From assembly GCA_019746485.1 (NCBI GenBank), contig JAIERW010000022.1:3280-67279 (forward strand): a stretch of 64,000 nucleotides of DNA. The letters are read 5' to 3'. A program made the position numbers and the translations under genes. How positions within the stretch are numbered: position 1 is the stretch's first letter; each line of letters opens with the position of its first letter. The notes under the pieces are model-generated. The model saw only the letters and a list, made by a program, of their open reading frames with translations, searched no databases and had not been told where the DNA came from. Origin of the DNA: Candidatus Babeliales bacterium (GTDB lineage Bacteria > Babelota > Babeliae > Babelales > RVW-14). Below are positions 1-55,342 of the stretch, one piece after another.

Positions 1-734
1 TAGTACAGCGTAGTCCCTGGATCGAAGGTTAAGAGCGATTGCGGTGCAACATAACTTTGCATTACTGATTGATAAATAAAGTCCATGGTGCCGGTAAAGC
101 GTACGTCGTTATAAAAAAACATGCGACCGGTTCTGAACGGAAAGTCGTCGGCCAAATCAAATGTGACGTTGTCCAGTGTTACATGGCCCTTTTGGTCAAA
201 GCAGCGGATGATGGGAATATTTGGACTATTGCGTGTTGTTTGAATATACATATTTTTGAGCGTTACACTTACATTGCTTTCGAGCAGAAGTTGTACGTGT
301 GGTTCAAAAATTAAGGTATTGCCGTGGCCGTCGATAATAGCATTAGAAATAATTTGCCACACGCTGTCTTGTTGCAGTGTTGTTTTGGTACCCAAATGAA
401 TGGTGTTGTTGCGTGCGTTAATACGTCCGCCGCTTGAAAAGGTAATGTTGGTACCAAAATATAAATCGCTCAAGAGCGCCAGCGAACCGGTGGTGCGCAA
501 ATCCATACCGCTCGAAACGGTCATAAACGTGTCCAACGTTGCCGACTGACCGGCCAAAATAGTAAAGCCGTTGTTTAAACGTACAAAGCCGGTGGCGTTG
601 TTGAAATTGCGAAAAACGTAGTGTGCGTTTTGGTAGACCAGCGAAGAGGTGCCCGTTAGGTTTGCAGGAAATAAACGTGTTGAGAGCCAGAGTGCTGCGA
701 GTGGTAAAAAAATAAGTATAAATCTTTTTTTCAT
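1..734 (-). CDS. Partial CDS (C-terminus lies outside the window). Secreted beta-helix-like protein, a fourth paralog of the three genes downstream, with no NNSNA-repeat module within the 244 aa visible in the window
   Basis: Not in the ORF track because it is open at the window edge. My manual translation from the ATG at 732-734 gives MKKRFILIFLPLAALWLS... (signal peptide). It continues ...IIDGHGNTLIFEPHVQLLLESNVSVTLKNMYIQTTRNSPNIPIIRCFDQKGHVTLDNVTF.LADDFPFRTGRMFFYNDVRFTGT...QSLLTFDPGTTLY, nearly identical to the core of ORFs 738-3506, 3517-6237 and 6250-8967. Confidence 0.75.
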   Translation of the reverse strand, partial: MKKRFILIFLPLAALWLSTRLFPANLTGTSSLVYQNAHYVFRNFNNATGFVRLNNGFTILAGQSATLDTFMTVSSGMDLRTTGSLALLSDLYFGTNITFSSGGRINARNNTIHLGTKTTLQQDSVWQIISNAIIDGHGNTLIFEPHVQLLLESNVSVTLKNMYIQTTRNSPNIPIIRCFDQKGHVTLDNVTFDLADDFPFRTGRMFFYNDVRFTGTMDFIYQSVMQSYVAPQSLLTFDPGTTLY

Positions 735-737
735 GAG

Positions 738-3497
738 CTAACTCACATTGTTATAAAAAAGTTTGCCGTCCAGTTGAACCCGTGCCCCAGCCAATAAAAA
801 TACGTCAAGGTCTGAAGTTGAGCCAAGTGCTGAATTACCAAAGTTTATGCCGTTGGTGAGCGCTTGTGCATTTGATTCTGTGGTGTAGTTAACTTGATAA
901 ATAATAACTTGGCCTGGATTGGAAGCTAGTCCTGCAGCAAGGCTTTTGCCATCTGGTGACCAGTGAAGATATGTTACGCTTGTGCCGCCTCCTCCTATGG
1001 TGAGCGTGTAGCGTGAGGTAAGTGATGCTCCATTAAATTCAAAAATCCTAATGTTGTTAACGTTGCCGTTTTCAGCGCCGCCTACGGCAACATAACGACC
1101 ATCTGGCGACCATGCCAATGCATAATAAACAGGAACGCTTGCCGAGGTATTTAATGAGGAGTCCACTAGGTTTTGAGTTGAACCATTAAAAGAATAGGCA
1201 GCAAGTATTGGGTCGCTCGTGTTGTTGGTATTATTTGCGCATACCGCAAAAAAGAGCCCATCAGGGCGCAAGTCGATATTTTTGGTTATTGGCGAGGCAG
1301 ATACAAAAGTAAGGGTACTGCTACTTTGCAAAGTTAGTGAAGTGCCGTTGAAGCGATATATACTTGATTGAGTAATGGTACCAGTTGTGGTATTAAAATA
1401 TACACCAAGATAGTTACTATCAGGTGTCCATCGTATGTGCTTGCCAAAGCTTGGGCTGATTTGTGCAAAACTAGCTGTTGCAACGGTGCTCGTTGATAAT
1501 GCTTTTCCGTTGAAGCTATAAACTTGTATGGTGTTTGGGTTTGCCAAACCAAAAAGAGCAAGATAACAACCACAAGGGCTCCATACTGCTGAAAAAAGTT
1601 GTGAAGTGGAATAAGTTACTTGAGATAGTACGGTTAAACTTGATTCATTAAAACTAAGAACACTTACTCTGTTTGTTGGTGATACTGTGCGTACTTCTGC
1701 CAGCACAATAAATCGACCGCTTGGGTGCCAATTCATTTCACGGTTGGGAAAACCACTAGGGGAGGTTGTGGCATATGAAGCAACCAAGATTAGTCCGGTA
1801 CTGGTGATTTTAAATATTCTTAGGTTTGCATCATTTGGATCAATGACTGCTAAAAATCTACCATCAGGGCTCCATTCACAGGCAGTGGTGCTAGAACCAC
1901 TGACGTTCATTGATGAGGTTTGTGTTAAGCTTGAAAAACGCGTTGTTGGGCCGGTGTTGAGGCTTACTTTATTGTCCAGCCACAAGCGGCCTTTGGTCAA
2001 ACTCATGCCGGTAAACGTTGTTTGCAACGTCGTTGCACTGCCCTTCAAATAAATGCCGGAAGTTTTGTCGGTCAGTTGCAATAAATCTTTGCTCGTGGTG
2101 CTTGGGTAGTAGTACAATGTTGTGCCCGGATCGAAGGTTAGCAACGATTGTGGTGCAACATAACTTTGCATCCACGATTGATAAATAAAGCACGAGGTGC
2201 CGGTAAAGCAAACATCATTAAAACAGAACATGCGCCCGGTTCTAAACGGAAAGTCATCGGCACACGATAGCGTGACGTTATCAAATGTCACGTGGCCCTT
2301 TTGGTCAAAGCAGCGAATAATAGGAATATTTGAGCTATTGCGCGTTGTTTGAATGTTCACATTTTTGAGCGTTAATGAAACGTTTGATTCAAGAACAATT
2401 TGAGCGTGTGGCCCAAAGATAAGCGTGCCGCCGTTGCCATCAATAATCAAGCTGCTCGTGATTTTGAGTGACGTTAATGTTGAGAGTACCAAACTATCGC
2501 TTAAAACCAACGAAAAGTTATTGCCTGCTAAGTCGCCACCGCTGGTGATATAAGCGTTAGAATTCAAATATAAATCGCCTGCCAGCACGAGTTTGCCGGT
2601 TGATTTAAGCGCAATGTTGCCGCTGACGGGAAGCGGTGTCATGAGCGTGAGCGTTTTGCCAGCATCAACTTCAAAGCCTGCTTTGTACAAAATAAGTTTG
2701 TTGATGGTGGTGGTTGCTTGAAAGCGTGAGTGGTTGGTAACGATCTGAATACTGTTGCCAATAAAGTTAATGGCGGTACTGTTTTGAATGAGCAGGCTGC
2801 CAAAATTTTGGGCAAGTGCGTTGATAGCATTACTGTTGTTAATAACGCGTTGGACGCTGGTAACAAATGAAACAAGTGCGTTGCTGTTGGTGCGAACGAG
2901 TGTTGAGAGTGGCGTGTAAATGAGAACGTTACTGTTGGTACGAATGAGTGTGGTAAGAGTTTGTGCCGTAATGGCATTACTGTTATTTTTTATACCAAAG
3001 CGTAGGGCGTTACTGTTATTTTTGCAACCAAACAACAGCGCATTACTGTCATTTCTTATTTTTTGATTGAGCAAAACGTTAGCGTTGCTATTGCCTTTTG
3101 TTATGACAGACATGGCGTTGGCAGTGTTACTGTTATTTTTTATTTTTGGGAAAAGAAAAACAAGTGCATTACTTGTTTGTCTCACAAGAGAACCAGTAGC
3201 GTTAATAACGTTACTGTTGTTGTAAACCATGTTGGTTGGTGCTTTACGTCGGCCCGTCCCCAGTACAACGCCGTTGGTATAACTTTCGGTCCAGCTGGTT
3301 GAGGCATTGTTGCCATACGTATCCACAATTGAGTCTTGTCCCCAGCCGGTAATACTGGCAACTTGGCCCAAACGCACTTTGGTTATTGTGCCGTCGTTCA
3401 TTGCCAAGTGAACGTTGCGGTTGGCAAAGTCGAGCGTGCACTGCGCTGTGCTGGAGTAAAAAAAGTATGTGAGAAAAATAAGAATACTTCTTTTCAT
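738..3497 (-). CDS. Large secreted surface-type protein, paralog 1: signal peptide, NNSNA repeats, beta-helix-like core, 7 WSPDG-type propeller blades, conserved C-terminal tail
   Basis: 922 aa ORF. I prefer the second ATG (MKRSILIFLTYFFYSSTAQC) by analogy with paralog 2 (MKRSIFLVLTYFFYSGTTQC). Blade motifs include CEWSPDGRFLAV, NWHPSGRFIVL, VWSPCGCYLAL, RWTPDSNYLGV, LRPDGLFFAV, AWSPDGRYVAV and HWSPDGKSLAA. Confidence 0.85.
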   Translation of the reverse strand: MKRSILIFLTYFFYSSTAQCTLDFANRNVHLAMNDGTITKVRLGQVASITGWGQDSIVDTYGNNASTSWTESYTNGVVLGTGRRKAPTNMVYNNSNVINATGSLVRQTSNALVFLFPKIKNNSNTANAMSVITKGNSNANVLLNQKIRNDSNALLFGCKNNSNALRFGIKNNSNAITAQTLTTLIRTNSNVLIYTPLSTLVRTNSNALVSFVTSVQRVINNSNAINALAQNFGSLLIQNSTAINFIGNSIQIVTNHSRFQATTTINKLILYKAGFEVDAGKTLTLMTPLPVSGNIALKSTGKLVLAGDLYLNSNAYITSGGDLAGNNFSLVLSDSLVLSTLTSLKITSSLIIDGNGGTLIFGPHAQIVLESNVSLTLKNVNIQTTRNSSNIPIIRCFDQKGHVTFDNVTLSCADDFPFRTGRMFCFNDVCFTGTSCFIYQSWMQSYVAPQSLLTFDPGTTLYYYPSTTSKDLLQLTDKTSGIYLKGSATTLQTTFTGMSLTKGRLWLDNKVSLNTGPTTRFSSLTQTSSMNVSGSSTTACEWSPDGRFLAVIDPNDANLRIFKITSTGLILVASYATTSPSGFPNREMNWHPSGRFIVLAEVRTVSPTNRVSVLSFNESSLTVLSQVTYSTSQLFSAVWSPCGCYLALFGLANPNTIQVYSFNGKALSTSTVATASFAQISPSFGKHIRWTPDSNYLGVYFNTTTGTITQSSIYRFNGTSLTLQSSSTLTFVSASPITKNIDLRPDGLFFAVCANNTNNTSDPILAAYSFNGSTQNLVDSSLNTSASVPVYYALAWSPDGRYVAVGGAENGNVNNIRIFEFNGASLTSRYTLTIGGGGTSVTYLHWSPDGKSLAAGLASNPGQVIIYQVNYTTESNAQALTNGINFGNSALGSTSDLDVFLLAGARVQLDGKLFYNNVS

Positions 3498-3516
3498 AAT
3501 TACCATTTTTCCTGAG

Positions 3517-6237
3517 TTAACTCACATTGTTATAAAATAATTTTCCATCAAGTTGAACGCGCGCGCCGGCCAAGAAAAATACGTCAACGTCTGATGTTGA
3601 GCCCAGCGCTGAGTTGCCAAAAACCAGGCCGTTGGTGAGCGCTTGTGTTGACGTGTCAAAGCGAAAAGTAGTGGAATAAATTTCAAATTCATCATGGCCT
3701 GAATCAGGTACGTTTCCGCCAATTGCCACATATTTGCCATCGTGTGACCAAGCAACGCCAATTGCTGCTGTGCCGTAATTGCTGCTGGTGACCAGTGTTA
3801 ATGCAGAACCGTCAAATTTATAAAATTGAATTTCATCGCCATTGATTGGCTCTCTTCCCACAATAGCTATATAGTTTCCTGAAGGATCCCACGCTATTTC
3901 TCTCACCTCGCCTGTTGCTGATGTTGAATAATCTTTGCTATCAATGAGTGTTAATGAGCCGCCATAAAAACTGTATATTTGAAGCTCAAAGGTACTGGTT
4001 GGAAGTAGTCCACCAACGGCAAGAAAGTTGCCTGCTGGGTTGAACACTACAGCGCCAATAAAACTGCTTGCGCCACCAAAATCTATGCTGGTAGCTAATG
4101 ATAATGTTGATCCGTTAAAAGAATACAGACGTAATTCATTGCCGCCAGACACTGCTCCTGTGGTTCCTATAGCCAGATAGTTGCCGGTGGGGTGCCACGA
4201 TGATCCACTTAGATTTGCTGTTCCTATATCAGCTCCTGTGACAAGTGTTGGTGCTGTTGGGCCATTGAATCGATAAATTTGTACTTCATTACCACTGATT
4301 GGGATATTAGCATTTACGGCAATGTATTTGCCATCTGGGCTCCATATTGCGCGAGGAATAGTACTGGTTGCAATTGTAAGGCTTGAAATTTGCGTTAAAG
4401 TTGTGCCATTAAAGCTGTAGAGATAAAACTCTGTGCTTCCCGTTACTGCCAAAAATCTGCCGTCAGGGCTCCATTTTGCGTTAAAAGATGTAGCACCCGC
4501 TAAAGCAACGTCTGCCGAATCAACAAGGCTTACTGATGTGCCAGTAAAACGGAAAATTTGTAGTTCGTTACCGCTGGGAGGAGAGTTTCCTGAAACGGCG
4601 ATAAAGCGATCGTCAGGAGAAAAATCGACCGATTCAACAAAAGTTCCGTAGTCTTGGGTTATAATTTGTGTAACCACATCAAGTGTGGTTGCTGCTTGTG
4701 TGCTGAGCGTAACTTTGTTGTCCATCCATAAACGGCCCTTGGTCAAGCGCATACCGGTGTGCGTTGTTTGCAACGTGGTGCCGGAGCCTTTGAAATAAAT
4801 GCCCGAGGACTTATCGGTGAGTTGTAGTAATGTTTTGTCGGTTGAGCTTGGGTAGTAGTACAATGTGGTGCCCGGATCAAAGGTCAGTAGCGATTGTGGC
4901 ATGACATAACTTTGCATCCACGATTGGTAAATAAATTTTGAAGTGCCGGTAAAGCGGACATCGTTATAAAAAAACATGCGCCCGGTGCGCCATGCAAAGT
5001 CGTCGGTAAGTGCTATGTTTACGTTGTCAAATGTTACGTGGCCTTTTTGGTCGTAGCAGCGAATAATAGGAATTGCAAGAGCGTTGCGTGTTGTTTGAAT
5101 ATTTACATTTTTGAGTGTTAACGAGACATTTGATTCGAGTAAAATTTGGGCGTGCGGTCCAAAAACTATTGTGCCGCCGTTGCCGTCAATGATTAAGCTG
5201 CTGGTTATTTGAAGTGTAGTAAGTGTTGAGAGCACCAAGCTATCGCTCATAACAAGCGAAAAGTTATTGCCGCCCAAATAGCCGCCGCTGGTGATATAAG
5301 CATTAGAATTCAAATACAAATCGCCTGCGAGCACAAGTTTGCCGGTTGATTTAAGCGCAATGTTGCCGCTAACGGGAAGCGGTGTCATGAGTGTGAGCGT
5401 TTTACCAGCATCAACTTCAAAGCCTGCTTTATAAAGAATAATTTTATTGATGGTGGTGGTTGCTTGAAAGCGCGAGTGGTTGGAAACTATTTGTACGTTG
5501 TTACCAAAGTAGTTTATAGCGTTACTGTTTTGGATATTGGTAGCTATTTGATTGCGGGTAAAAACAATAAGATTACTGTTGCTTCTTACCAGCGTTGTGC
5601 TGGCAAAGTTAAAACCGTTGGCAGTGTTACTGTTGTTGATAATTCTGCGCGACAAAGCAACGGCGGCGTTACTGTTGGCACGTACTCTGAAACCCAAAGA
5701 AATAATGGCATTACTGTTATTTTTTATGCCAAAGCGCAGGGCGTTACTATCAAATCTGACGCATGGAAGGATGGTAGAACTATTTGCTCTAATTCTGGTT
5801 GGCAAGGTAATAATGCCGTTACTGTTGCTCAATTCAAGGCGGGCGATGGCGGCAATTACGTTACTATTGTTGTTTGAAAGCGGGGCTATGCTGGTGATCA
5901 CGTTACTATTATTTTGGGTCAGTCTTCCCCACGCGTTAATCGCGTTACTGTTGTTAACAACCATGTTGGTTGAAGGTTGTCGGCGTCCTGTGCCCAGCTC
6001 AACACCGGCGGTGTACGTTTCTGTCCAGCTGGCAGCACTTTTAACAAAGCTTTTAATAATAGAATCTTGTGTCCAGCCGGTTACTTGCGAAGCATTGGTT
6101 ATTTTGAGGCGTGAAACGGTAACTTGACTCAACTCGTCAATAATCAACGTTGCATCTTGATTGGCAAAGTCGAGCGTGCACTGTGTTGTGCCTGAGTAAA
6201 AAAAGTATGTGAGAACTAAAAAAATACTTCTTTTCAT
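3517..6237 (-). CDS. Large secreted surface-type protein, paralog 2 (same architecture as paralog 1)
   Basis: 906 aa ORF with a signal peptide and about 11 NNSNA-type repeats. The core is near-identical to paralog 1 (KAGFEVDAGKTLTLMTPLPVSGNIALKSTGKLVLAGDLYLNSNAYITSGG). Blade motifs include FSPDDRFIAV, WSPDGRFLAV, WSPDGKYIAV, WHPTGNYLAI, FNPAGNFLAV, WDPSGNYIAI and WSHDGKYVAI. The gap to the next gene is 10 nt. Confidence 0.88.
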   Translation of the reverse strand: MKRSIFLVLTYFFYSGTTQCTLDFANQDATLIIDELSQVTVSRLKITNASQVTGWTQDSIIKSFVKSAASWTETYTAGVELGTGRRQPSTNMVVNNSNAINAWGRLTQNNSNVITSIAPLSNNNSNVIAAIARLELSNSNGIITLPTRIRANSSTILPCVRFDSNALRFGIKNNSNAIISLGFRVRANSNAAVALSRRIINNSNTANGFNFASTTLVRSNSNLIVFTRNQIATNIQNSNAINYFGNNVQIVSNHSRFQATTTINKIILYKAGFEVDAGKTLTLMTPLPVSGNIALKSTGKLVLAGDLYLNSNAYITSGGYLGGNNFSLVMSDSLVLSTLTTLQITSSLIIDGNGGTIVFGPHAQILLESNVSLTLKNVNIQTTRNALAIPIIRCYDQKGHVTFDNVNIALTDDFAWRTGRMFFYNDVRFTGTSKFIYQSWMQSYVMPQSLLTFDPGTTLYYYPSSTDKTLLQLTDKSSGIYFKGSGTTLQTTHTGMRLTKGRLWMDNKVTLSTQAATTLDVVTQIITQDYGTFVESVDFSPDDRFIAVSGNSPPSGNELQIFRFTGTSVSLVDSADVALAGATSFNAKWSPDGRFLAVTGSTEFYLYSFNGTTLTQISSLTIATSTIPRAIWSPDGKYIAVNANIPISGNEVQIYRFNGPTAPTLVTGADIGTANLSGSSWHPTGNYLAIGTTGAVSGGNELRLYSFNGSTLSLATSIDFGGASSFIGAVVFNPAGNFLAVGGLLPTSTFELQIYSFYGGSLTLIDSKDYSTSATGEVREIAWDPSGNYIAIVGREPINGDEIQFYKFDGSALTLVTSSNYGTAAIGVAWSHDGKYVAIGGNVPDSGHDEFEIYSTTFRFDTSTQALTNGLVFGNSALGSTSDVDVFFLAGARVQLDGKLFYNNVS

Positions 6238-6249
6238 AATTACCGTTCG

Positions 6250-8967
6250 TTAACTCACATTGTTATAAAATAACTTGCCATTTAATTCCACACGCGCGCC
6301 AGCCAATAAAAATACGTCAAGATCTGAAGTTGAGCCAAGTGTTGAGTTGCCAAAATTAATGCCGTTGGTGAGTGCTTGTGTTGTTGATTCTGTGGTGTAT
6401 GAAACGGTGTAAATATCAAGTTCTGAAGAGGAAGACCGTATAAAAGCAAGCAAAGAACCATCGCTTGACCAACTGGTAGACATATATTCATTATTACCAA
6501 GAGATATTGTTTGCACCAACGTAAGGCTTGATGAATCAAATTTATAAATCTGAAAGTTTCCAGAATTGACACTACGGCCCACAGCAAGATGAACACCATC
6601 TGGAGACCATGTAGCGGCGTTATACCCAAGAGAAGCGCCGCCAGATACCGTAGTAATGAGCCTTTGGCTTGTGCCATTAAAAGAATACACCGCAACTACC
6701 GGATCGCCAGATGTATTCGTATTTCGTGCTGTTACAGCATAAAATAATCCATTTGGGCTCCATGCTATTTGCGCAGCATCAGGCAAAGCTGCTCCAAATA
6801 CAAGATTGATACTATTTACTACGGTAAGAGAAGTACCATTAAATGAATAAATTTTACTCGTAGTTGTTGATCCACCAGGAGAGTAATAAATTCCTAAATA
6901 TTTGCCGCTTGGGCTCCATGAAAGGGGTTTGTCCGTTCCAATAGCACTTGCTCCTGGTCCAACGCTAGTGATTGTTGAAAGAGAAGAACCATTAAATGAA
7001 TAAATAGTGAGCGCGCCAGTGCTCATGCCTGCAAGGTAGTTGCCACAAGGGCTCCACGCAACGGTAAATTGACTGCCTGAGGTTGTAACAAGGCTGAGCG
7101 TTGTTTCATTAAAGCTTAAGACAGACATGCTTCCACCAAGTGTTCCAAAGGCGAGAAATTTGCCAGATGGATGCCAGTGAACAGAGTAGAGGTTTGATCC
7201 GCCGGCAAAGTAAGAACAAACAAATTGTAGGTTTGTCCTGGTAACTTTAAAAATACGTATGATGCGATTAGTATAATCACCAGTCATTATGTAGCGAGCA
7301 TCGGGGCTAAATTCACACAATTGAAAGCTGGCTCCGCTTGTTATCATGCTGTACGTTAGGGAGGTGCTCAAAAATTTTGTGTTTGCTTTGGTATTGAGCG
7401 TTACTTTATTGTCTAGCCACAAGCGACCTTTGGTAAAGCGCACGCCTGTGGTTGTTGTTTGAAGTGTTACGGCGCTGCCATTGAAGTAAATGCCCGATGA
7501 TTTGTCTTGCAATTGAATTAAATCTTTTTCAGTTGAGCTTGGATAGTAGTAAAGTGTGGTACCAGGATCGAATGTTAACAATGACTGTGGTGTAACATAA
7601 CTTTGCATAACTGATTGGTAAACAAGGCGCGAGGTGCCGGTAAAGCGTACATCATTGCTAAAAAATATGCGGCCGATTCTGAATGGAAAATCGTCGGCAC
7701 AAGAAAGGGTTACATTGTCAAAAGTTACATGTCCTGTTGGGCAAAAACAGCGAATAATGGGAATGTTTGGGCTGTTACGTGTTGTTTGAATGTGCATATT
7801 TTTGAGCGTTAATGACACATTTGTTTCGACTAAAAGTTGCGCGTGTGGCCCAAAAACAAGCGTGCCACCGTTGCCATCAATAATCAAGCTGCTGGTGATG
7901 TCCAGCGTGGTAAGAGTTGAGAGTACCAAGCTGTCGCTCATAACCAACGAAAAGTTATTGCCACCCAAATAGCCTTCGCTGGTCAGATAAGCGTTTGAAC
8001 CCAAATACAAATCGCCTGCCAATACAAGTTTTCCGGTTGATTTGAGAGCAATGTTGCCGTTGACGGGCAGCGGGGTCATGAGCGTGAGTGTTTTGCCAGC
8101 ATCAACTTCAAAGCCGGCTTTATAAAGAATAATTTTGTTGATAGTGGTGGTTGCCTGAAAGCGTGAGTGGTTGGAAACAATTTGTACGTTGTTGCCAAAA
8201 AAATTAACGGCGTTACTGGTTTGTCTATTAAGTGCGGTGAGTGCTGGGGTAATATCTGCGGCAAGTTTGATAATGGCATTACTATTTTGTTTGATTAGTG
8301 CCGCGTTGGCAGTAAGATTAGCGCTAATTTTAATCACAGCGCTACTGTTTTGTTTTGCCAGCCTGCTTATGCTTAAAATAACGTTACTGTTGCCGCGAAC
8401 AAGTGCATAAAGCCTTACAATCGCACTACTATTATTTTTTATGCCAAAAACTAGGGCGTTACTGTTATTTTTTATGCCAAAGTTAAGCGCGTTACTGTTG
8501 GCATTTTCTGAGCGATGCAAAAAGACCAGTAAGTTACTGTCGGCCCGCACCAACGGTGCTAGCTTGTTTAGGGCGTTACTGTCGTTTAAAACCTTGCGGT
8601 TGAGCGCAACGGTGGCGTTACTGTTGTTAACAGCCAGTGGGCGATGCACTTTGACCGCGTTACTGTTGTTATAGATCATATTAGTTGGCTGCCCTTGCCG
8701 CCCTGTGCCAATTTCAACACCGGCGGTATAGCTTTCAGTCCACGAGGTTGGGCTGGTGTTGCCATAAACTTTGATAATTGAATCTTGAGAAAAGCCGGTA
8801 ATTTGTGCAACTTTGCGCAAGCCAACCCGCGCATCTGGTTGTGGGTTGAGTACCAAGTTTGAGTTGCGGCTTACAAATTTGAGTGCGCCAAAAAGGTTGG
8901 GGTGCGGGCATAAAGAAGTTGCAATAAAAGCTGCGCAAAACAAGTAAAACGTTGGGACACGTCTCAT
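6250..8967 (-). CDS. Large secreted surface-type protein, paralog 3 (same architecture)
   Basis: 905 aa ORF with the same module order. The hydrophobic N-terminus is MRRVPTFYLFCAAFIATSLC. The C-terminal tail is TQALTNGINFGNSTLGSTSDLDVFLLAGARVELNGKLFYNNVS. Confidence 0.88.
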   Translation of the reverse strand: MRRVPTFYLFCAAFIATSLCPHPNLFGALKFVSRNSNLVLNPQPDARVGLRKVAQITGFSQDSIIKVYGNTSPTSWTESYTAGVEIGTGRQGQPTNMIYNNSNAVKVHRPLAVNNSNATVALNRKVLNDSNALNKLAPLVRADSNLLVFLHRSENANSNALNFGIKNNSNALVFGIKNNSSAIVRLYALVRGNSNVILSISRLAKQNSSAVIKISANLTANAALIKQNSNAIIKLAADITPALTALNRQTSNAVNFFGNNVQIVSNHSRFQATTTINKIILYKAGFEVDAGKTLTLMTPLPVNGNIALKSTGKLVLAGDLYLGSNAYLTSEGYLGGNNFSLVMSDSLVLSTLTTLDITSSLIIDGNGGTLVFGPHAQLLVETNVSLTLKNMHIQTTRNSPNIPIIRCFCPTGHVTFDNVTLSCADDFPFRIGRIFFSNDVRFTGTSRLVYQSVMQSYVTPQSLLTFDPGTTLYYYPSSTEKDLIQLQDKSSGIYFNGSAVTLQTTTTGVRFTKGRLWLDNKVTLNTKANTKFLSTSLTYSMITSGASFQLCEFSPDARYIMTGDYTNRIIRIFKVTRTNLQFVCSYFAGGSNLYSVHWHPSGKFLAFGTLGGSMSVLSFNETTLSLVTTSGSQFTVAWSPCGNYLAGMSTGALTIYSFNGSSLSTITSVGPGASAIGTDKPLSWSPSGKYLGIYYSPGGSTTTSKIYSFNGTSLTVVNSINLVFGAALPDAAQIAWSPNGLFYAVTARNTNTSGDPVVAVYSFNGTSQRLITTVSGGASLGYNAATWSPDGVHLAVGRSVNSGNFQIYKFDSSSLTLVQTISLGNNEYMSTSWSSDGSLLAFIRSSSSELDIYTVSYTTESTTQALTNGINFGNSTLGSTSDLDVFLLAGARVELNGKLFYNNVS

Positions 8968-9078
8968 CTGTGCTACTCTCTTTTTTTCTCTTTTTTTGAC
9001 TCTCTTCCTTTTTTATACAAACCACCGTAGCAAAAGTCTGAGACTTATGCCAGACAAAAGTTATGATTTTTTTTGAGA

Positions 9079-9134
9079 GAAAAAAGAGCGGCAGGAACTA
9101 TAAGATTTTTGTTTTTCTTAAATTTCTGCCGCTC
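9079..9134 (-). terminator. Candidate intrinsic terminator downstream of the ankyrin gene 9153-10490
   Basis: A GAGCGGCAG / CTGCCGCTC stem (9086-9094 and 9126-9134) is flanked by A/T runs on both sides. The loop is long (about 31 nt), so it is weaker than a canonical terminator. Confidence 0.4.
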
Positions 9135-9152
9135 TTTTTTAATAGTCAGGGG

Positions 9153-10592: not shown

Positions 10593-11426
10593 TTATTTTT
10601 GAGTAATCTGTGCTTGATCAGCTACTTTGAGCTGAAAGGTAATGACCGCTTTTTCTTGGTCGATGGTGCTGTTGAAATTTTTGGCATCAACATTGTCTGG
10701 AAGATCAACCGTTACTTGGAGCTTGCCGTCTTTGTACTCAATCTTTTTGGTCCGGTTGTTAACCGTTTGCGAAGAAAAATAGCTTTCTGATTGATAGCGC
10801 CAACCGCCGTTTGCTTGCACGGTGCTGCTGTCGTCTTTTTCTGCGGTTACCACAACGCGGTGGTTATCGTCTTGCACCGCAAGCTTAATATCGTCCCGCC
10901 CAAAGCTAGGCAGGCTGATTTCAAGCTTGTAAGCTCCAGCTTCTTCTTTTTCTGTTGCGCTAAACTTGCCTGGCAAATCAAACATGTGGCGCGTCTTTTC
11001 GGTTTTAGTCAGGCGACCAATCATGCGGTCCAGCCAGCTGCCACTTTTTTTTAATGCTGCAAACACGGCGTTTGCTTCGTTGTGTAAGTGACGCACGTGG
11101 TGCTCGCTGCGCGTGCTGGCGTCTTTAAGTTTGGTTAAAAGTTCAGCACTTTGTTTTTTTAGTTTGTCAGACTGTTCTTCTATTTTTTTTGCTAAATCGT
11201 CCAAATTTGTGTCGATTTTTTTTGTTAGCTCGCCCACGTTGCTTTTAACGCTTTCTTGTACTTTTTTGCGATAACGTGGGAAGTCATTGGCAAACCACGA
11301 GCTCATGTCGTTTTCAAGTTGGCTAAATGACTCATCAAGGTATCTGAAAACGTCGTAGTGGTAGCCATGCGCAGAACCACTCAGTGCAAAAGTGGCAACA
11401 AAAAGAAAACCGTAACGTTTGTTCAT
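10593..11426 (-). CDS. Secreted protein with an N-terminal coiled-coil and a C-terminal Hsp20/alpha-crystallin-like domain
   Basis: Start at MNKRYGFLFVATFALSGSAHG, preceded by the RBS AAGAGGAGG. The C-terminus AYKLEISLPSFGRDDIKLAVQDDNHRVVVTAEK...LQVTVDLPDNVDAKNFNSTIDQEKAVITFQL matches the alpha-crystallin-domain pattern (xLPGxxxxDIxVxxxxxxLxIxAE...LPxxVDxxxIxAxxxxGVLxI). Confidence 0.6.
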   Translation of the reverse strand: MNKRYGFLFVATFALSGSAHGYHYDVFRYLDESFSQLENDMSSWFANDFPRYRKKVQESVKSNVGELTKKIDTNLDDLAKKIEEQSDKLKKQSAELLTKLKDASTRSEHHVRHLHNEANAVFAALKKSGSWLDRMIGRLTKTEKTRHMFDLPGKFSATEKEEAGAYKLEISLPSFGRDDIKLAVQDDNHRVVVTAEKDDSSTVQANGGWRYQSESYFSSQTVNNRTKKIEYKDGKLQVTVDLPDNVDAKNFNSTIDQEKAVITFQLKVADQAQITQK

Positions 11427-11511
11427 AAGAGCCTCCTCTTTTTGGTTAAATAATATTTTTGTTATGTACAAGTTATTGTACCAAAAAGATGCAAATTTGT
11501 GAATAGTTTTT

Positions 11512-15623: not shown

Positions 15624-18299
15624 TTAATCGAGTTCGTCAGCATTAATGTGAATTTCTCCATCAATGAAGTGTGCGCCATGTTGCCCGTAGTATTCCTGCA
15701 TGCTTGTACTTGGAATTTGATATACGCTGGAGGTAGGGATCGATTGCAGTTCGGCCATTTCAGCCAATATTTCCTGATTTACGCGAGGGCGTTTTGCGCT
15801 TCTGCTTGTGGTGTTGTCATCAACCAATGAACGTGAAGTTGCAGGGCTTGATGAGCTTGAACTCGATGAGCTTGATGAACTTGAGCTTGAAGTTGCTGAG
15901 CCTGGAAAAGATGGGCTTGCCCCTCGATATTCTTCGCTACTCGGGATGAGCGTAAAGTTTGGATCGAATGGATTTATAAATTCGTCTTCAGGGGTATTGC
16001 TACCAACGCCTGAGCATCCTCGTTTGGCTGGTTGAGGCCTGCAAACGGTTCGCACAACTTTTAGTTCTCTATTTTCTTGAGTAAATTCAGTTTCTGCGCG
16101 ACATAAAGGGCACGTAGATGGCAGGTCGGCGTTGAGTTGTGTATTTGCTGCTTGAGTTAGGCACGTTGGGCAGAAATCGTGACTGCAGCCAAGACTTGCG
16201 CAATCTGAGCCTTCGTCAAAAGGTTCATAACAAATTGCGCAGTAATCTTCATCGGTTTTTTCAATAGTTGTTGCAGCTTGTGGGCCATGTTCTTGTACCT
16301 CGTTTAAAAGGCGCGCAAGAGCTTGGTGGCCGCGTCTGGTTGCTGTTGCTGCTGGCGTTTCGCCAGGAAAATGGCTGCCTGTGGTTGTTGCAGTAACGTT
16401 TGCACCAGCGGTAACAAGTTCTTGTACGCATGCAACATGGCCACTGTAAGCAGCGTCATGAAGTGGAGTGATGCGATCGTTGTCTGTCGCATTAACCTTT
16501 GCACCAGCGGTAATAAGAGCTTGTACGCATGCAAGATGGCCTCTCAAAGCAGCGAGATGAAGTGGAGTGTTGCTATCGTTGTCTGTCGCATTAACGTTTG
16601 CACCAAGTGCAATGAGTGCTTGTACGCATGCAACATGGCCACTGCAAGAAGCGTCATGAAGTGGAGTGTTGCCATCGTTGTTTGCTGCATCAACGTTTGC
16701 ACCAAGTGCAATAAGATCTTGTAAGCGTGGCAGATTGCCATCTCGGGCAGCAGTAATAAGTTGGTTGGCAAGAAATTGTTGGGTTCTGGCGTCAATGATA
16801 GGGCTAGCTTGCCTGAGTGCCTGTACACATTCTGTGCGGCCATTTTCTGCTGCGACATAAAGTGGGGTAAAGCCATTGCAAGCAAGATTAACATTTGCGT
16901 TAAGTTCAATAAGTCTGTTTACGCATGCGATACGGCCATGTTCTGCTGCGACATAAAGTGCTGTCCAGCCATCGTTGTTTGCTGCATCAACGTTTGCGCC
17001 AAGTGCAATAAGTGCTTGCAAGCGTGGCAGATTGCCATCTCGGGCAGCAGTAATAAGTTGGTTGGTGAGCAATTGTTGGGTTCTGGCATCAATGATAGCG
17101 CCTGCTTGCCTGAGTACTTGGACACATTCTGTGTGGCCATGTTCTAGTGCAATATAAAGTGGGGTAAAGTAATTGCAAGCGCGATTAACATCAGCGTTAG
17201 CAGCGATGAGTGCTTGTAAGTTTTCAAGGCGTCCGTGTGCAGCTGCCATGTACAGTGGAGTAGAGCCGTTGTTTCCGATCATGTTAGGGTCTAAGCCCAT
17301 GTCCAGAAGCGCTTGCAGGTGAGCTACATCGTTATCGTTTTCGAAAGCTGTAGCGTAAAGGAGATTTTGTGTTCTTCTGTCAGCCGTAGCGCCGGCGGCG
17401 ATAAGTGTTCGTGCGGCATCAGTACTGCCGTTTGCGGCTGCGGTATACAGCAAAGTATCGCCGTAACGGCTGCTCATGTTGGGACTTAAGCCCATGGCAA
17501 TGAGTACTTGCAGGCCAGCTACATTGTTGTTGCGAGCTGCATCGAAAAAGTGGCCTACTGTTCTTTCATCAACCGTAGCGCCAGCCAGCATAAGTGTTCG
17601 TGCGGCAGCAACGTTGCCCAGCGAGGCTGCGGCATACAGAGCAGAAGATCCGAATGTTTCAATTTGGGTAAGGGGAGCGCCAAGGCTTATAAGTCTTTCA
17701 ATCTCTGCCGTGCTATTATTTCTTGCAGCTAAAATGAGTTGTCTGGAGAGATCTCTTCGTGTTCTATCACTAACTATTCCTCCAAAATAGACGAGTCTTT
17801 GAGCGCATGCTGTGTGGCCATTTTCACGCGCCAGAGAGAGGGGGGTTTTGCCGAGTTGATTTTCAGGATTGATGAGTACGCCCTGCCTTGAGCAGAGATA
17901 GTTTACGAGTACAAGGTTGCCGAGTTCTGCGGCTTTGTGGAGAGTTGTGCTTCCAATGCCCGATCGAGCATTTATGTCGGCGCCGTATTCCAAAAGGACT
18001 TCTGCACAGCCTATTGAAGCGTTGTAAGCAGTCCAAAAAAGTGCAGGTGCATATTCATAGGTATTGCTTCGTGCGGGGTTTGGAACGATGTTGTTAAGAG
18101 CGTCTTCAGGCTGCAAGCCGATAAGTTGTTTTGCTTTCCACAACGTTAGGTTTCCTAGCGCTTGTCTGAGTTGTGCAGGATTGTCTTGGTTAATAGCGTC
18201 TCTAACGGGATTTCCTGTTGGAAATACGGTGGCAGCGGGCAGTGCGTTGGCAGTTAATGCCAAGGCAACAAAAAGTGAATAAGCAAGTTTTTTAAACAT
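15624..18299 (-). CDS. Secreted ankyrin-repeat protein (roughly 20 repeats by eye) fused to a C-terminal C3HC4 RING finger, followed by a poly-Ser tract and a KRPR motif. Putative E3 ubiquitin-ligase mimic
   Basis: Signal peptide MFKKLAYSLFVALALTANALPA. Many TPLH/GANV repeats. The RING is CAICYEPFDEGSDCASLGCSHDFCPTCLTQAANTQLNADLPSTCPLCR (C-x2-C-x13-C-x-H-x2-C-x2-C-x17-C-x2-C), at about 16095-16245. Confidence 0.9.
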   Translation of the reverse strand: MFKKLAYSLFVALALTANALPAATVFPTGNPVRDAINQDNPAQLRQALGNLTLWKAKQLIGLQPEDALNNIVPNPARSNTYEYAPALFWTAYNASIGCAEVLLEYGADINARSGIGSTTLHKAAELGNLVLVNYLCSRQGVLINPENQLGKTPLSLARENGHTACAQRLVYFGGIVSDRTRRDLSRQLILAARNNSTAEIERLISLGAPLTQIETFGSSALYAAASLGNVAAARTLMLAGATVDERTVGHFFDAARNNNVAGLQVLIAMGLSPNMSSRYGDTLLYTAAANGSTDAARTLIAAGATADRRTQNLLYATAFENDNDVAHLQALLDMGLDPNMIGNNGSTPLYMAAAHGRLENLQALIAANADVNRACNYFTPLYIALEHGHTECVQVLRQAGAIIDARTQQLLTNQLITAARDGNLPRLQALIALGANVDAANNDGWTALYVAAEHGRIACVNRLIELNANVNLACNGFTPLYVAAENGRTECVQALRQASPIIDARTQQFLANQLITAARDGNLPRLQDLIALGANVDAANNDGNTPLHDASCSGHVACVQALIALGANVNATDNDSNTPLHLAALRGHLACVQALITAGAKVNATDNDRITPLHDAAYSGHVACVQELVTAGANVTATTTGSHFPGETPAATATRRGHQALARLLNEVQEHGPQAATTIEKTDEDYCAICYEPFDEGSDCASLGCSHDFCPTCLTQAANTQLNADLPSTCPLCRAETEFTQENRELKVVRTVCRPQPAKRGCSGVGSNTPEDEFINPFDPNFTLIPSSEEYRGASPSFPGSATSSSSSSSSSSSSSSSPATSRSLVDDNTTSRSAKRPRVNQEILAEMAELQSIPTSSVYQIPSTSMQEYYGQHGAHFIDGEIHINADELD

Positions 18300-47993: not shown

Positions 47994-48005
47994 GATAACC
48001 TCTTT

Positions 48006-53212: not shown

Positions 53213-53299
53213 TGGTGCCGAAGGTCGGACTCGAACCGACACGGTGTCGCCACCGCGGGATTTTGAGTCCCGTGCGTCTACCAATTTCGCCACTTCGGC
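53213..53299 (-). tRNA. tRNA-Leu (anticodon CAA), CCA encoded
   Basis: GCCGAAGTGGCGAAATTGGTAGACGCACGGGACTCAAAATCCCG + long variable arm + GGTTCGAGTCCGACCTTCGGCACCA. I folded the cloverleaf by hand. Confidence 0.92.
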
Positions 53300-53375
53300 A
53301 TGCCCATGTAATTACGCACTATGCTACCAGAATGCTGCATAACGTCAAGAGTTTTGCATGCTTTTTTAAGGTTTT

Positions 53376-54584: not shown

Positions 54585-54594
54585 AGCACCCTCG

Positions 54595-54879
54595 CTAAAT
54601 AGTCATTTGCACTTCAAGCCCCAGTTCGAGCAAGATCTCTTCTTTTGAACGTTTGGTATCAATTTTTATTAATTTTGACCGAGAAGTTGCGCCGCGCACA
54701 ATTTCTACGTTGTTTTGTGCTACGTTGAGTTTTTTGCTCAAAAATTTTATCAACTCAGCATTGGCCTTTCCGCTCTCGGGCGCGCTTTTTAAGTAGCATT
54801 TGATTGTGTTGTTTTTGTCATAGTTTAATGCTTGTTTGCCCGCATTTGGGGTTACTTTTATTTCAAGGAGAATGCTCAT
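54595..54879 (-). CDS. yggU: DUF167/YggU-family protein
   Basis: LEIKVTPNAGKQ...LKSAPESGKANAELIKFLSKKL...VEIVRGATSRSKLIKI. Confidence 0.88.
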   Translation of the reverse strand: MSILLEIKVTPNAGKQALNYDKNNTIKCYLKSAPESGKANAELIKFLSKKLNVAQNNVEIVRGATSRSKLIKIDTKRSKEEILLELGLEVQMTI

Positions 54880-55021
54880 AACGTCCCTCTCACTAGCGTT
54901 TTTCGTAAAAAAACAAAAAAAATGATAGACAATTGCGACATTTTTATTATTATTTCATATACTAACTCAAGGTAAGAAGATACAGAAATAGATTGAAATA
55001 CCCAAGATTATAAAATAATAT

Positions 55022-55156: not shown

Positions 55157-55161
55157 GAGGA

Positions 55162-55286: not shown

Positions 55287-55342
55287 ATCTTCTTAAATGA
55301 AATACAACAGGTTTTAACTGCAAATAGAAGAAGAGTTAATTC

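What the first reader, a model, noticed from the sequence alone, without database searches (positions are those of the whole stretch)
1..8967. Four back-to-back paralogs of a large surface-type protein with a homogenised core and divergent flanks (concerted evolution, mosaic antigen-like family)
**Seen.**
- Four minus-strand genes have 3-, 10- and 12-nt gaps.
- The central beta-helix-like block of about 250 aa is almost identical at the nucleotide level between copies. It runs from ...NHSRFQATTTINK.ILYKAGFEVDAGKTLTLMTPLPV.GNIALKSTGKLVLAGDLYL... to ...KGRLW(L/M)DNKV, at about 1960-2740, 4715-5485 and 7400-8165, with part of it at 1-330.
- The N-terminal NNSNA repeat region and the C-terminal propeller blades are strongly diverged.
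- The promoter-distal copy (1-734) replaces the whole NNSNA module with a short unrelated N-terminus.

**Inference.** Gene conversion keeps the core uniform while the exposed modules diversify. That is the pattern seen in variable surface-protein families such as chlamydial Pmps or rickettsial Sca-type families. This domain combination (Asn-rich repeats, then beta-helix, then a 7-bladed WSPDG propeller, with no obvious beta-barrel) is not one I recognise.
Basis: partly seen in the sequence, partly recalled or inferred. Interest (0 to 1): 0.7.

Follow-up and report, generated by a model that had tools for sequence, protein, structure and literature searches.

The report
Mosaic exported beta-helix/propeller gene array
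Four head-to-tail genes of an uncultured protist-dependent bacterium (Babeliales) encode exported modular proteins of an undescribed family, whose shared beta-helix core has evolved in concert between copies while the repeat and propeller modules diverge or are swapped.

Summary
The four tandem minus-strand genes are real (A 6250-8967, B 3517-6237, C 738-3506, D 1-734, cut by the window edge), and so is the core/flank contrast. The 256-codon core is 78-82% identical in nucleotides, not almost identical. The longest exact shared tract is 18-35 nt.

Each long protein has a signal peptide, an N-terminal domain, about ten Asn-rich 14/11-residue repeats, a beta-helix, and a 7-bladed WD40/PD40-type propeller. 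The propeller is inserted before the last ~42 residues, which are the conserved end of the beta-helix.

The organism is a Candidatus Babeliales (Dependentiae/TM6) MAG. The same array sits at a syntenic locus in two other genomes.

Module trees disagree. N-modules form three ancient ortholog groups (73-100% bootstrap). Cores cluster by lineage (99-100%). Propellers do not follow gene position, and in a distant genome they are near-identical between paralogs. So segmental gene conversion or cassette exchange is supported, but it is old in this window and also moves propellers.

No Pfam or NCBIfam family and no solved structure covers the core or the N-module. The core family has at least 1,381 sequence clusters.

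The function, exported host-binding proteins, is inferred and not shown.

The parts
6250..8967 (-). Gene A (905 aa), first gene of the array. N-module type 'A'. Identical to P0007, annotated 'WD40 repeat domain-containing protein [Candidatus Babeliales bacterium]'.
3517..6237 (-). Gene B (906 aa), N-module type 'B'. Identical to P0001.
738..3506 (-). Gene C (922-aa longest ORF). The probable true start is the ATG at 3497, giving 919 aa (= P0004). N-module type 'C'.
1..734 (-). Gene D, first 244 codons of a short-type member: signal peptide, then the beta-helix directly, with no NNSNA module. The rest lies outside the window. The full product P0082 is 495 aa and ends in the middle of the propeller.
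8170..8967 (-). A: signal peptide, conserved ~90-aa N-terminal domain, and Asn-rich NNSNA repeats (14- and 11-residue periods).
   Evidence: AF2 pLDDT is below 50 for the equivalent part of B.
5479..6237 (-). B: signal peptide, N-terminal domain and about 11 NNSNA repeat units.
2733..3497 (-). C: signal peptide, N-terminal domain and NNSNA repeats. Includes a 33-nt tandem duplication at 2974-3054.
7402..8169 (-). A: beta-helix core (256 codons). The first 112 codons (7834-8169) are the most homogenised part.
4711..5478 (-). B: beta-helix core. The first 112 codons are 5143-5478. The AF2 model of residues 240-515 has pLDDT 93.3.
1965..2732 (-). C: beta-helix core. The first 112 codons are 2397-2732.
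6379..7401 (-). A: 7-bladed WD40/PD40-type propeller, inserted into the beta-helix. No close counterpart among the related proteins compared here (best 45%, P0028).
3646..4710 (-). B: 7-bladed propeller. Best matches are L002 propellers at 47-48%, not its positional ortholog g2 (39%).
867..1964 (-). C: 7-bladed propeller. It is 72% identical to the propeller of gene 1 (P0006) in the sister genome, which carries an A-type N-module.
6250..6378 (-). A: conserved C-terminal tail (42 aa plus stop), the final part of the beta-helix domain after the propeller insertion.
3517..3645 (-). B: conserved C-terminal tail.
738..866 (-). C: conserved C-terminal tail.
8968..9152 (-). 185-nt A-rich intergenic region upstream of A. 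It follows a hairpin plus T-run after the upstream ankyrin gene, and is the probable start of the array's transcription unit (inferred).

Best explanation
**What it is.** The region is the promoter-proximal part of a tandem array of a Dependentiae-specific, Sec-exported modular protein family.

**Anatomy of a long member.**
- signal peptide
- conserved ~90-residue N-terminal domain
- about ten Asn-rich 14/11-residue 'NNSNA' repeats
- a right-handed beta-helix-type solenoid
- a 7-bladed WD40/PD40-type propeller, inserted in a loop before the last ~40 residues of the solenoid

Short members such as D lack the N-domain and the repeats.

**Shown: the modules have separate histories.**
- N-modules are inherited vertically as three ancient types fixed to array positions.
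- The beta-helix core has been homogenised among neighbouring paralogs within each lineage (concerted evolution through segmental gene conversion or unequal recombination).
- Propellers are replaced or copied between paralogs. The conserved core and the conserved tail supply flanking homology on either side of the propeller.

**Inferred: what it does.**
- The proteins cross the inner membrane through Sec. They are then displayed on the cell or released, possibly via the type II secretion system that TM6 genomes encode.
- The beta-helix acts as a rigid scaffold.
- The fast-evolving repeat stalk and the propeller are ligand-binding modules for contact with the protist host.
- Module exchange generates binding diversity.
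For: **Anatomy**
- ORFs and alignment.
- Pfam finds only propeller families. WD40, ANAPC4_WD40, eIF2A and PD40 score above their cut-offs.
- AF2 of full-length B gives pLDDT above 90 for the core and propeller. The core-only model has pLDDT 93.3 and pTM 0.91 and is all-beta.
- Foldseek matches the propeller to 7-bladed WD40 structures at E about 1e-13.
- Every top Foldseek hit for the core is a right-handed beta-helix protein (RbmB, TibA, Ag43, FHA, pectate lyases).
- Propeller-less homologues, including h4 and h6 in the syntenic L002 array, join 'DNKVTLST' directly to the tail.

**Organism and synteny**
- Best hits are Candidatus Babeliales.
- The flank order HK-HIT-(Ank)-HSP20-(Ank)-array is the same in L001 and L002.

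**Recombination**
- Module identity tables.
- Bipartition bootstraps: N-module ortholog groups 100/100/73%. Core lineage clades 100% and 99%, with 0% for the ortholog splits. Propeller {C, g1} 99% and {h2, h3, h7} 98%.
- dS: first core half 0.54-0.70 between the window's paralogs, against housekeeping W-L1 0.52-0.70, paralog N-modules 2.3 and paralog propellers 1.9.
- In L002, h3-h7 propeller dS is 0.44 while their core dS is 1.55.
- In L001, g2-g3 first core half has dS 0.29, and two conversion tracts are significant (global p 0.001 and 0.016).

**Export and host context**
- All four genes start with a basic then hydrophobic signal-peptide-like N-terminus.
- TM6 genomes carry a type II secretion system with two gspD copies (PMC4776705).
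- In Chromulinavorax, 44% of coding sequences carry signal peptides and are viewed as host-directed (PMC6561590).

**Family expansion**
- 1,381 representative clusters at E<=1e-3, with up to 9 matched stretches of the core per protein.
- Same-strand arrays with 3-8 core copies per locus occur in other MAGs.

**Evolutionary rate**
- Orthologous N-modules and propellers have dN 0.13-0.19, against 0.013-0.02 for flanking housekeeping genes. dN/dS is still only 0.1-0.2.
Against: - No experiment or localisation predictor was available, so surface display or secretion is inferred only from the signal peptide and the organism's lifestyle.
- No anchor (beta-barrel, lipobox or sortase signal) was found.
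- Within the window itself no individual conversion tract is statistically significant, and no exact tract exceeds 35 nt. Exchange is therefore ancient or rare here.
- The second core half is about equally diverged at synonymous sites within and between lineages, so selection accounts for much of its conservation.
- dN/dS of 0.1-0.2 gives no sign of positive selection at the whole-module level.
- The core's structural matches are not significant (best E 0.02, TM 0.41 or lower). 'Beta-helix' is therefore a fold-class assignment only.
- The N-module could not be modelled (pLDDT below 50).
- In L001 the array abuts tolQ/tolR and a TolB-like gene, which would also fit a periplasmic role.
Confidence: 0.6

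Rival explanations
1. There is no gene conversion. The array consists of old duplicates, and the core and tail look uniform only because they are under much stronger purifying selection than the N-module and the propeller.
For: - The second core half is 70-84% identical in nearly all family members, long or short, in several genomes.
- Its dS between the window's paralogs (1.1-1.35) is no lower than against L002 (1.2-2.0).
- No significant tract exists between the window's copies.
- dN/dS is low everywhere.
Against: - Selection cannot make cores cluster by lineage (100% and 99%) while the N-modules of the same genes cluster by ortholog group across lineages.
- First-core-half dS of 0.54-0.70 between paralogs equals the species-level dS, against more than 1.9 in the flanks.
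- Propeller placement contradicts positional orthology.
- Significant tracts and a dS of 0.29 are found in the sister genome.
Confidence: 0.1
2. The proteins are periplasmic or envelope components, or secreted glycan-degrading enzymes, rather than binding proteins. Possibilities are Tol-Pal-associated TolB-like propellers or a polysaccharide lyase/hydrolase-type beta-helix.
For: - The top Foldseek hit of the core is the polysaccharide lyase RbmB, and PL6, PL1 and PL3 lyases are also listed.
- The propellers give weak TolB matches (TIGR02800, E 2.5e-10).
- The L001 array is immediately followed by MotA/ExbB-, ExbD- and PD40-type genes.
- Only a Sec signal is present, with no outer-membrane anchor.
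Against: - The structural hits are non-significant (E 0.02 or higher, TM 0.41 or lower) and include adhesins just as often.
- TolB scores are 31-40 bits against a cut-off of 343.
- Near-invariant core residues are mostly Gly, hydrophobic, aromatic, Asn, Asp, Ser or Thr. By my own reading of the alignment (an inference, not a test) these look structural, and no conserved basic or acidic catalytic set is evident.
- Multi-copy arrays with swapped modules, and at least 26 core copies in one MAG, are unusual for a housekeeping envelope protein.
Confidence: 0.15
3. It is a classical programmed antigenic-variation system of the vls, msp2 or pilS type: one expressed gene that is rewritten by unidirectional conversion from silent donor cassettes.
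For: - Tandem paralogs have conserved segments flanking variable segments.
- There is evidence of segmental exchange.
Against: - All copies in the window are complete ORFs with a start codon and a signal peptide. The 3-19-nt spacing suggests co-transcription.
- There are no truncated promoterless cassettes and no long identical flanks. Exact tracts are 35 nt or shorter.
- There are no homopolymer switches in the genes.
- Divergence between copies corresponds to species-level time scales.
Confidence: 0.03
4. The proteins are soluble effectors delivered into the host cell. There the WD40-type propeller mimics eukaryotic scaffold proteins, in the way the neighbouring ankyrin and RING proteins are thought to act.
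For: - The best Pfam matches of the propellers are eukaryotic WD40 families (EML, THOC3, WDHD1, ANAPC4).
- The array is embedded among ankyrin-repeat genes and lies near an Ank-RING protein.
- WD40 has been listed among eukaryote-like interaction domains of TM6 (PMC4776705).
- Signal-peptide-bearing effectors are thought to be common in Dependentiae (PMC6561590).
Against: - The blade motif W-S-P-D-G is of the bacterial PD40/TolB type, and PD40 also scores above its cut-off.
- By general knowledge (not tested here), a large beta-helix plus an Asn-rich repeat stalk is typical of extracellular or surface proteins rather than cytosolic mimics.
- No translocation system for folded effectors into the host is known for this group.
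Confidence: 0.12

Closest known systems
Chlamydial polymorphic membrane proteins (Pmp) and rickettsial Sca autotransporters
   Same: - Multi-copy, partly tandem families in obligate intracellular bacteria.
- A beta-helix-type passenger with variable parts.
- Exported through Sec.
   Different: - No C-terminal autotransporter barrel and no Pfam Chlam_PMP or autotransporter hit.
- Zero GGA[ILV] motifs.
- The C-terminus is part of the solenoid.
- An inserted propeller and an NNSNA repeat stalk are present.
Beta-helix adhesins and lyases (Ag43, TibA, FHA TPS domain, PfbA, RbmB, pectate lyases)
   Same: - Same fold class according to the AF2 model and the Foldseek hit list.
   Different: - No significant structural match (E 0.02 or higher, TM 0.41 or lower).
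- No meaningful sequence match to any PDB chain (one chance hit, E 2.3).
- None of these carries a propeller inserted into the solenoid.
Trimeric autotransporter adhesin heads and stalks (YadA-type 14-residue 'NSVAIG' repeats)
   Same: - A 14-residue repeat built around an N-S-x-A-I motif, with occasional 11-residue units. This resemblance is recalled from memory only.
   Different: - No Pfam YadA_head, Hep_Hag or YadA_anchor hit at E<=1.
- No PDB sequence hit for a 27-repeat homologue at E<=10.
- AF2 could not model the region as a monomer.
- Oligomeric state is unknown.
TolB / PD40 and WD40 seven-bladed propellers
   Same: - Seven blades and SPDG-type blade motifs.
- Pfam WD40, PD40, eIF2A and ANAPC4_WD40 score above their cut-offs.
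- Foldseek TM up to 0.84 normalised to the target.
   Different: - Far below the TolB equivalog cut-off (40 bits against 343).
- Here the propeller is an internal insertion in another domain and is highly variable between paralogs.
Multigene families that evolve by segmental gene conversion (Anaplasma msp2/p44, Borrelia vls, Mycoplasma MgPar, Treponema tpr)
   Same: - Conserved segments flank variable ones.
- Different segments give incongruent phylogenies.
- Copies exchange sequence.
   Different: - All copies are intact and probably co-expressed.
- Exchange occurs on evolutionary rather than within-infection time scales.
- Whole domains are exchanged rather than short hypervariable loops.

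Membership tests
Chlamydial Pmp family | Multiple GGA[ILV] and FxxN tetrapeptide repeats (Pfam Chlam_PMP) | tested here: not met
   There are 0 GGA[ILV] and 3-5 FxxN motifs per protein. No Chlam_PMP hit at E<=1.
Chlamydial Pmp / Sca / classical autotransporters | C-terminal beta-barrel translocator domain | tested here: not met
   No autotransporter Pfam hit. The last 42 residues align with the solenoid end of propeller-less homologues.
Trimeric autotransporter adhesins | YadA-type membrane anchor and Hep_Hag/YadA head repeats | tested here: not met
   No Pfam hit. No PDB sequence hit for the repeat-rich homologue P0037.
Trimeric autotransporter adhesins | Obligate trimer | not testable with these tools
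   No multimer prediction was available. The monomer model of the N-module has pLDDT below 50.
WD40/PD40 beta-propeller superfamily | Seven four-stranded blades with the repeat signature | tested here: met
   Pfam WD40 at 34.7-45.6 bits (cut-off 27) in B and C (24.3, below cut-off, in A), and PD40 at 27-31 bits (cut-off 20.9) in A and B (14.2 in C). AF2 pLDDT above 90. Foldseek E about 1e-13 to 7-bladed WD40 structures. Seven blade motifs in A and B.
TolB (Tol-Pal system) | Score above the equivalog cut-off, plus the N-terminal TolA-binding domain | tested here: not met
   TIGR02800 scores 31-40 bits against a cut-off of 343.
Right-handed parallel beta-helix (pectin-lyase-like) fold | Stacked three-strand rungs forming a right-handed solenoid | tested here: inconclusive
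   The confident all-beta AF2 model (pLDDT 93.3) has top Foldseek hits that are all beta-helix proteins. However E is 0.02 or higher and TM 0.41 or lower. Coordinates could not be inspected.
Polysaccharide lyase / glycoside hydrolase beta-helix enzymes | Conserved catalytic residues (Ca-binding Asp plus a basic catalytic residue, or an Asp triad) | tested here: inconclusive
   Near-invariant residues are listed. I could not identify a catalytic-type set in them, but I made no structural superposition.
Programmed antigenic-variation cassette systems (vls, msp2, pilS) | One expression site plus silent, truncated donor cassettes | tested here: not met
   All four copies have a start codon and a signal peptide, and the three that lie wholly within the window are complete ORFs. 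Shared exact tracts are 35 nt or shorter.
Concerted evolution by gene conversion (process, not a family) | Paralogous segment clusters by genome or lineage while flanking segments cluster by ortholog | tested here: met
   Bootstrap support is 100% and 99% for core lineage clades, against 100/100/73% for N-module ortholog groups. The dS contrast agrees.

The most novel reading that the evidence does not exclude
The conserved split beta-helix (core plus tail) may be a purpose-built scaffold that flanks an exchangeable propeller 'cassette'. Together with position-fixed repeat stalks, this would give Dependentiae a combinatorial repertoire of host-binding proteins that sets or shifts protist host range.

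A variant seen in the sister genome (g3/g4), and apparently at gene D, splits the protein after blade 4. The second half carries its own signal peptide. This hints that a propeller and a solenoid could be reassembled from two exported polypeptides.
Probability: 0.25. Interest if true: 0.7.

Novelty: new variant of a known kind. Interest (0 to 1): 0.5.

Why it matters
- **Poorly known biology.** Dependentiae (TM6, Babelota) are widespread obligate parasites of protists, and almost nothing is known about how they recognise or enter hosts.
- **A candidate family.** This large family (at least 1,381 clusters at 50% identity) appears lineage-restricted and exported. It is currently annotated only as 'WD40 repeat protein'. 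Its core and N-module are not in Pfam or NCBIfam, and its architecture is unusual, with a propeller inserted into a beta-helix.
- **An evolutionary test case.** The arrays give a clean natural example of domain-level mosaic evolution: vertical N-modules, concerted cores and swapped propellers.
- **What it would enable.** If the proteins prove to be host-binding, they would be the first candidate specificity determinants for this phylum. The core would then merit a new domain family definition.

Tried and rejected
- **Contig look-ups.** The look-up of encoding contigs found no record for C, P0004, P0001 or P0082. For P0007 it returned only a 3.8-kb Logan contig. The array beyond window position 1 could therefore not be read.
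- **GTDB scans.** The first attempt was rejected because the alignment was too diverse. The second used patterns that were too narrow and confirmed nothing. The third worked.
- **PDB sequence searches.** Full-length B gave only weak WD40 hits. A repeat-rich homologue gave no hit. The core profile gave only one chance hit, E 2.3.
- **Family libraries.** Pfam and NCBIfam have nothing for the N-module or core, even for the 'KID repeat protein' homologue P0050.
- **Structure searches.** Foldseek of the core against PDB and BFVD gave fold-class hits only.
- **Conversion and switching signals.** The GENECONV-style test found no significant tract between the window's own copies. There are no homopolymer switches, and only two small 33-nt tandem duplications in the N-modules.
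- **Taxonomy check.** I tried to check the MAGs labelled 'Pseudomonadota' through genes shared with the window. No shared genes were found, so the check was uninformative.
- **Bootstrap labels.** The labels printed were unreliable after re-rooting. I recomputed them as explicit bipartition frequencies.
- **Literature.** Nothing describes this family.

Full report
**1. What is in the sequence**

The window starts inside a run of four minus-strand genes: A 6250-8967 (905 aa), B 3517-6237 (906 aa), C 738-3506 (922 aa as the longest ORF) and D 1-734 (first 244 codons, cut by the window edge). Gaps between the longest ORFs are 12, 10 and 3 nt.

B and C share 90% identity over 87 nt spanning their signal-peptide codons and the 10 nt upstream. 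C therefore most likely starts at the ATG at 3497, as in the 919-aa NCBI model P0004.

A 185-nt A-rich spacer lies upstream of A. It follows a hairpin plus T-run behind the preceding ankyrin gene. The four genes probably form one transcription unit; this is an inference.

A tblastn of B against the whole window finds no further family member.

**2. Check of the observation**

A codon-aligned identity profile confirms a core/flank contrast.

| Region | nt identity between copies |
|---|---|
| N-terminal ~260 residues | 0.33-0.68 (0.87 between B and C over the signal-peptide codons) |
| 256-residue core | 0.69-0.94 per 30-codon window |
| propeller | 0.38-0.66 |
| last ~55 codons | 0.62-0.85 |

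- Over the whole core the copies are 78-82% identical in nucleotides and 83-87% in amino acids.
- The longest exact tracts shared by any two copies are 18-35 nt.
- 'Almost identical at the nucleotide level' is therefore an overstatement.
- D has only a signal peptide before a divergent version of the first core half (17-43% aa). Its second core half is 76-83% identical to A, B and C.

**3. Anatomy**

*Propeller.* Pfam recognises only the propeller. WD40, ANAPC4_WD40, eIF2A and PD40 score above their cut-offs in at least two of the three full-length proteins, though not every family in every protein, and many eukaryotic WD40 families score below theirs. NCBIfam adds only sub-threshold TolB similarity.

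*Full-length model.* AlphaFold2 on B, with a 53-sequence family alignment, gave these confidence values:
- pLDDT above 90 for residues ~250-510 (all-beta)
- pLDDT above 90 for residues ~510-860 (propeller)
- pLDDT falling from about 80 to 54 along the tail
- pLDDT below 50 for residues 1-246

*Structure searches.*
- Foldseek places the propeller with 7-bladed WD40 structures (E about 1e-13).
- A core-only model (B residues 240-515) reaches pLDDT 93.3 and pTM 0.91.
- Its best PDB and BFVD hits are all right-handed beta-helix proteins: RbmB lyase, TibA, Ag43, FHA, pectate lyases, ice-binding proteins and tailspikes.
- None of these hits is significant (E 0.02 or higher, TM 0.41 or lower).
- Sequence searches of PDB with the core profile or a repeat-rich homologue find nothing beyond one chance-level hit (E 2.3).

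*N-module.* It holds a conserved ~90-residue domain followed by about ten 'NNSNA(I/L)' units, spaced mostly 14 and sometimes 11 residues apart. At DNA level the units are diverged, apart from 33-nt duplications in A and C.

*Propeller as an insertion.* Propeller-less homologues include two genes in the syntenic array of another genome. They join 'DNKVTLST' to the tail motif 'TNG-x-FGNS...D-x-D-V...AGA-x-V-x-L-x-G-x-L-x-Y' within 3-9 residues. The ~350-residue propeller is therefore an insertion inside the beta-helix domain, and the conserved tail is the end of that domain.

**4. Organism, synteny and family size**

- *Organism.* Identical proteins are deposited as 'WD40 repeat domain-containing protein [Candidatus Babeliales bacterium]' on a 74.8-kb contig.
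- *Taxon labels of homologues.* Named homologues are labelled Babeliales, TM6, Dependentiae or 'bacterium'. A few MAGs are labelled Pseudomonadota, Bacteroidota or Lokiarchaeota. I could not verify those labels and suspect coarse labelling or mis-binning.
- *Synteny.* Two genomes carry the same locus. L001 (GCA_019749895.1) has HK-HIT-Ank-HSP20-Ank followed by six family ORFs, then MotA/ExbB-, ExbD- and PD40-type genes. L002 (CP064957.1, 1.45 Mb) has the same left flank followed by at least eight family genes.
- *Flank identity.* The window's flanks align with L001 at 80-91% nt.
- *Family size.* A phmmer search with the core against 1.84 billion representatives finds 1,381 clusters at E<=1e-3, of which 229 are at E<=1e-30. 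Proteins range from 297 to 3,366 aa and have up to nine matched stretches of the core.
- *Arrays elsewhere.* Same-strand arrays of 3-8 cores are common in other MAGs. One MAG has at least 26 copies.
- *Literature.* I found no paper describing the family.

**5. Evolutionary mechanism**

*N-modules are positional orthologs.* A matches g1 at 74%, B matches g2 at 75%, C matches g3 at 69% and D matches g5 at 84%, whereas paralogs are 41-46% identical.

*Cores show no orthology.* All six long-type cores of the window and L001 are 79-89% identical in every pairing. They are 65-68% identical to L002 cores.

*Bootstrap support for explicit bipartitions* (300 replicates):

| Module | Split | Support |
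|---|---|---|
| N-module | {A, g1, h1, h6} | 100% |
| N-module | {B, g2, h3, h8} | 100% |
| N-module | {C, g3, h2, h7} | 73% |
| N-module | window plus L001 lineage clade | 0% |
| core | window plus L001 lineage clade | 100% |
| core | {h1, h2, h3} | 99% |
| core | every ortholog split | 0% |

This is the signature of concerted evolution.

*Synonymous divergence (dS)*:

| Comparison | dS |
|---|---|
| housekeeping genes, window vs L001 | 0.52-0.70 |
| orthologous N-modules | 0.63-0.92 |
| first 112 core codons, window paralogs | 0.54-0.70 |
| remaining core codons, window paralogs | 1.1-1.35 |
| paralogous N-modules | about 2.3 |
| paralogous propellers | about 1.9 |

- Homogenisation of the first core half therefore dates to about the split of the two genomes.
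- The second core half, at dS 1.1-1.35, is no more similar within the lineage than it is to L002. It is also 70-84% conserved family-wide. It is held mainly by selection, although it still clusters by lineage at protein level (85% and 94%).
- A GENECONV-type permutation test finds no globally significant tract between the window's copies. It finds two in L001 (p 0.001 and 0.016). L001 g2-g3 has dS 0.29 in the first core half. Exchange has therefore continued in the sister lineage.

*Propellers do not follow position.*
- C's propeller is 72% identical to that of g1, which carries an A-type N-module (99% bootstrap).
- A's propeller is only about 40% identical to g1's.
- B's propeller is closer to L002 propellers (47-48%) than to g2's (39%).
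- D's partial propeller matches g3's best (41%), not g5's.
- In L002 the propellers of h2, h3 and h7 form a tight clade (98%). Those of h3 and h7 are 88% identical with dS 0.44, although their cores are 66% and their N-modules 41% identical.

Propellers are therefore copied or replaced between paralogs. The conserved core and tail lie on either side and could supply the homology for this; that step is an inference.

*Selection.* dN/dS is 0.1-0.2 for all modules. However, dN of orthologous N-modules and propellers is about ten times that of the flanking genes.

**6. Function (inferred)**

- All four genes begin with a basic then hydrophobic N-terminus of signal-peptide type, without a lipobox.
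- No barrel or anchor domain is present.
- TM6 genomes encode a type II secretion system with two gspD copies (PMC4776705).
- In Chromulinavorax, 44% of coding sequences carry signal peptides and are thought to be host-directed (PMC6561590).
- The genes sit among ankyrin-repeat genes and near an Ank-RING protein.

My best reading is that these are exported host-interaction proteins, either surface-associated or released. The solenoid would act as a scaffold, and the repeat stalk and propeller as variable binding modules.

The rivals are:
- selection without conversion, which the tree incongruence contradicts
- a periplasmic, Tol-associated or glycan-degrading role, supported only by weak fold-class hits and by adjacency to tolQR in one genome
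- a classical silent-cassette antigenic-variation system, which the intact and diverged copies contradict
- cytosolic effector mimicry through the WD40-type propeller

**7. Comparison with known systems and verdict**

- The Pmp/Sca analogy fails every membership feature tested (no barrel, no GGA[ILV] motifs, no Pfam match).
- The resemblance of the 14-residue N-S-x-A-I repeats to YadA-type heads is recalled from memory, and no search supports it.
- The family is best described as a new, Dependentiae-restricted variant of the general class of modular beta-helix exported proteins that evolve by segmental recombination.
- Interest is moderate. The architecture and the clean module-level mosaicism are new, the family is large and unnamed, and the function is untested.

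Noticed in passing
window 40224-51509 (minus strand): A second tandem paralog array. Three back-to-back genes encode signal-peptide-bearing proteins of 1225, 1359 and 1167 aa. They are 28-37% identical overall and 48-51% over the first ~140 residues. No significant Pfam domain was found.
   Followed up: partly
window 15624-18299 (minus strand): An 891-aa protein combines many ankyrin repeats with a RING-type zinc finger (zf-RING_2, 33 bits against a cut-off of 27.3). This is a eukaryote-like E3-ligase architecture in a bacterial genome.
   Followed up: no
L001 12753-15573 (genes g3 and g4); window gene D (= P0082, 495 aa): In the sister genome the C-type gene is split after propeller blade 4. 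The second ORF (231 aa) starts with its own signal-peptide-like segment and carries three blades plus the tail. The window's D product, P0082, ends at exactly the same alignment position ('...SAGG' against '...DAGG'). This suggests a conserved two-ORF version rather than a random pseudogene or a contig end.
   Followed up: partly
L002 7279-12700 and 17647-20364 (genes h2, h3, h7): The three propellers form a tight clade (98% bootstrap). Those of h3 and h7 are 88% aa identical with dS 0.44, although their cores are 66% and their N-modules 41% identical. This is a recent propeller-only conversion in a different genome.
   Followed up: yes
window 3421-3507 vs 6161-6247: The 5' ends of C and B are 90% identical over 87 nt, including the 10 nt upstream of B's start codon. 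This implies that C's real start is the ATG at 3497, not the one at 3506. It is also another small homogenised patch.
   Followed up: partly
window 2974-3054 and 8427-8499: There are 33-nt (11-residue 'FGIKNNSNAL'-type) tandem duplications of 2.2-2.5 copies at 77-85% identity inside the N-modules of C and A. They are the only repeat units still recognisable at DNA level.
   Followed up: no
window 10593-11471 (minus strand): An HSP20/alpha-crystallin-domain protein has an N-terminal hydrophobic, signal-like segment and an apolipoprotein-like helical region. Its position is conserved next to the array in all three genomes.
   Followed up: no
L001 19841-22733: In the sister genome the array is followed directly by MotA/ExbB-, ExbD- and PD40/Tricorn-type genes, a TolQ-TolR-...-TolB-like set. 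The equivalent region of this genome lies outside the window.
   Followed up: no
P0035; loci L003-L018: Family members occur in MAGs labelled Lokiarchaeota, Pseudomonadota and Bacteroidota. GC content (32-43%) and array structure resemble those of the Babeliales loci. These labels are probably coarse taxonomy or mis-binning. This was not verified.
   Followed up: partly
window 5464-6127 (plus strand): Long antisense ORFs (137 and 191 aa) lie opposite B's N-module. They have low-complexity Leu/Val/Thr-rich translations. They are most likely by-products of the Asn-rich repeat codons, not genes.
   Followed up: no
window 53213-55611: A cluster of four tRNA genes: Leu-CAA on the minus strand, and Arg-ACG, Ser-GCT and Ser-TGA on the plus strand.
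   Followed up: no
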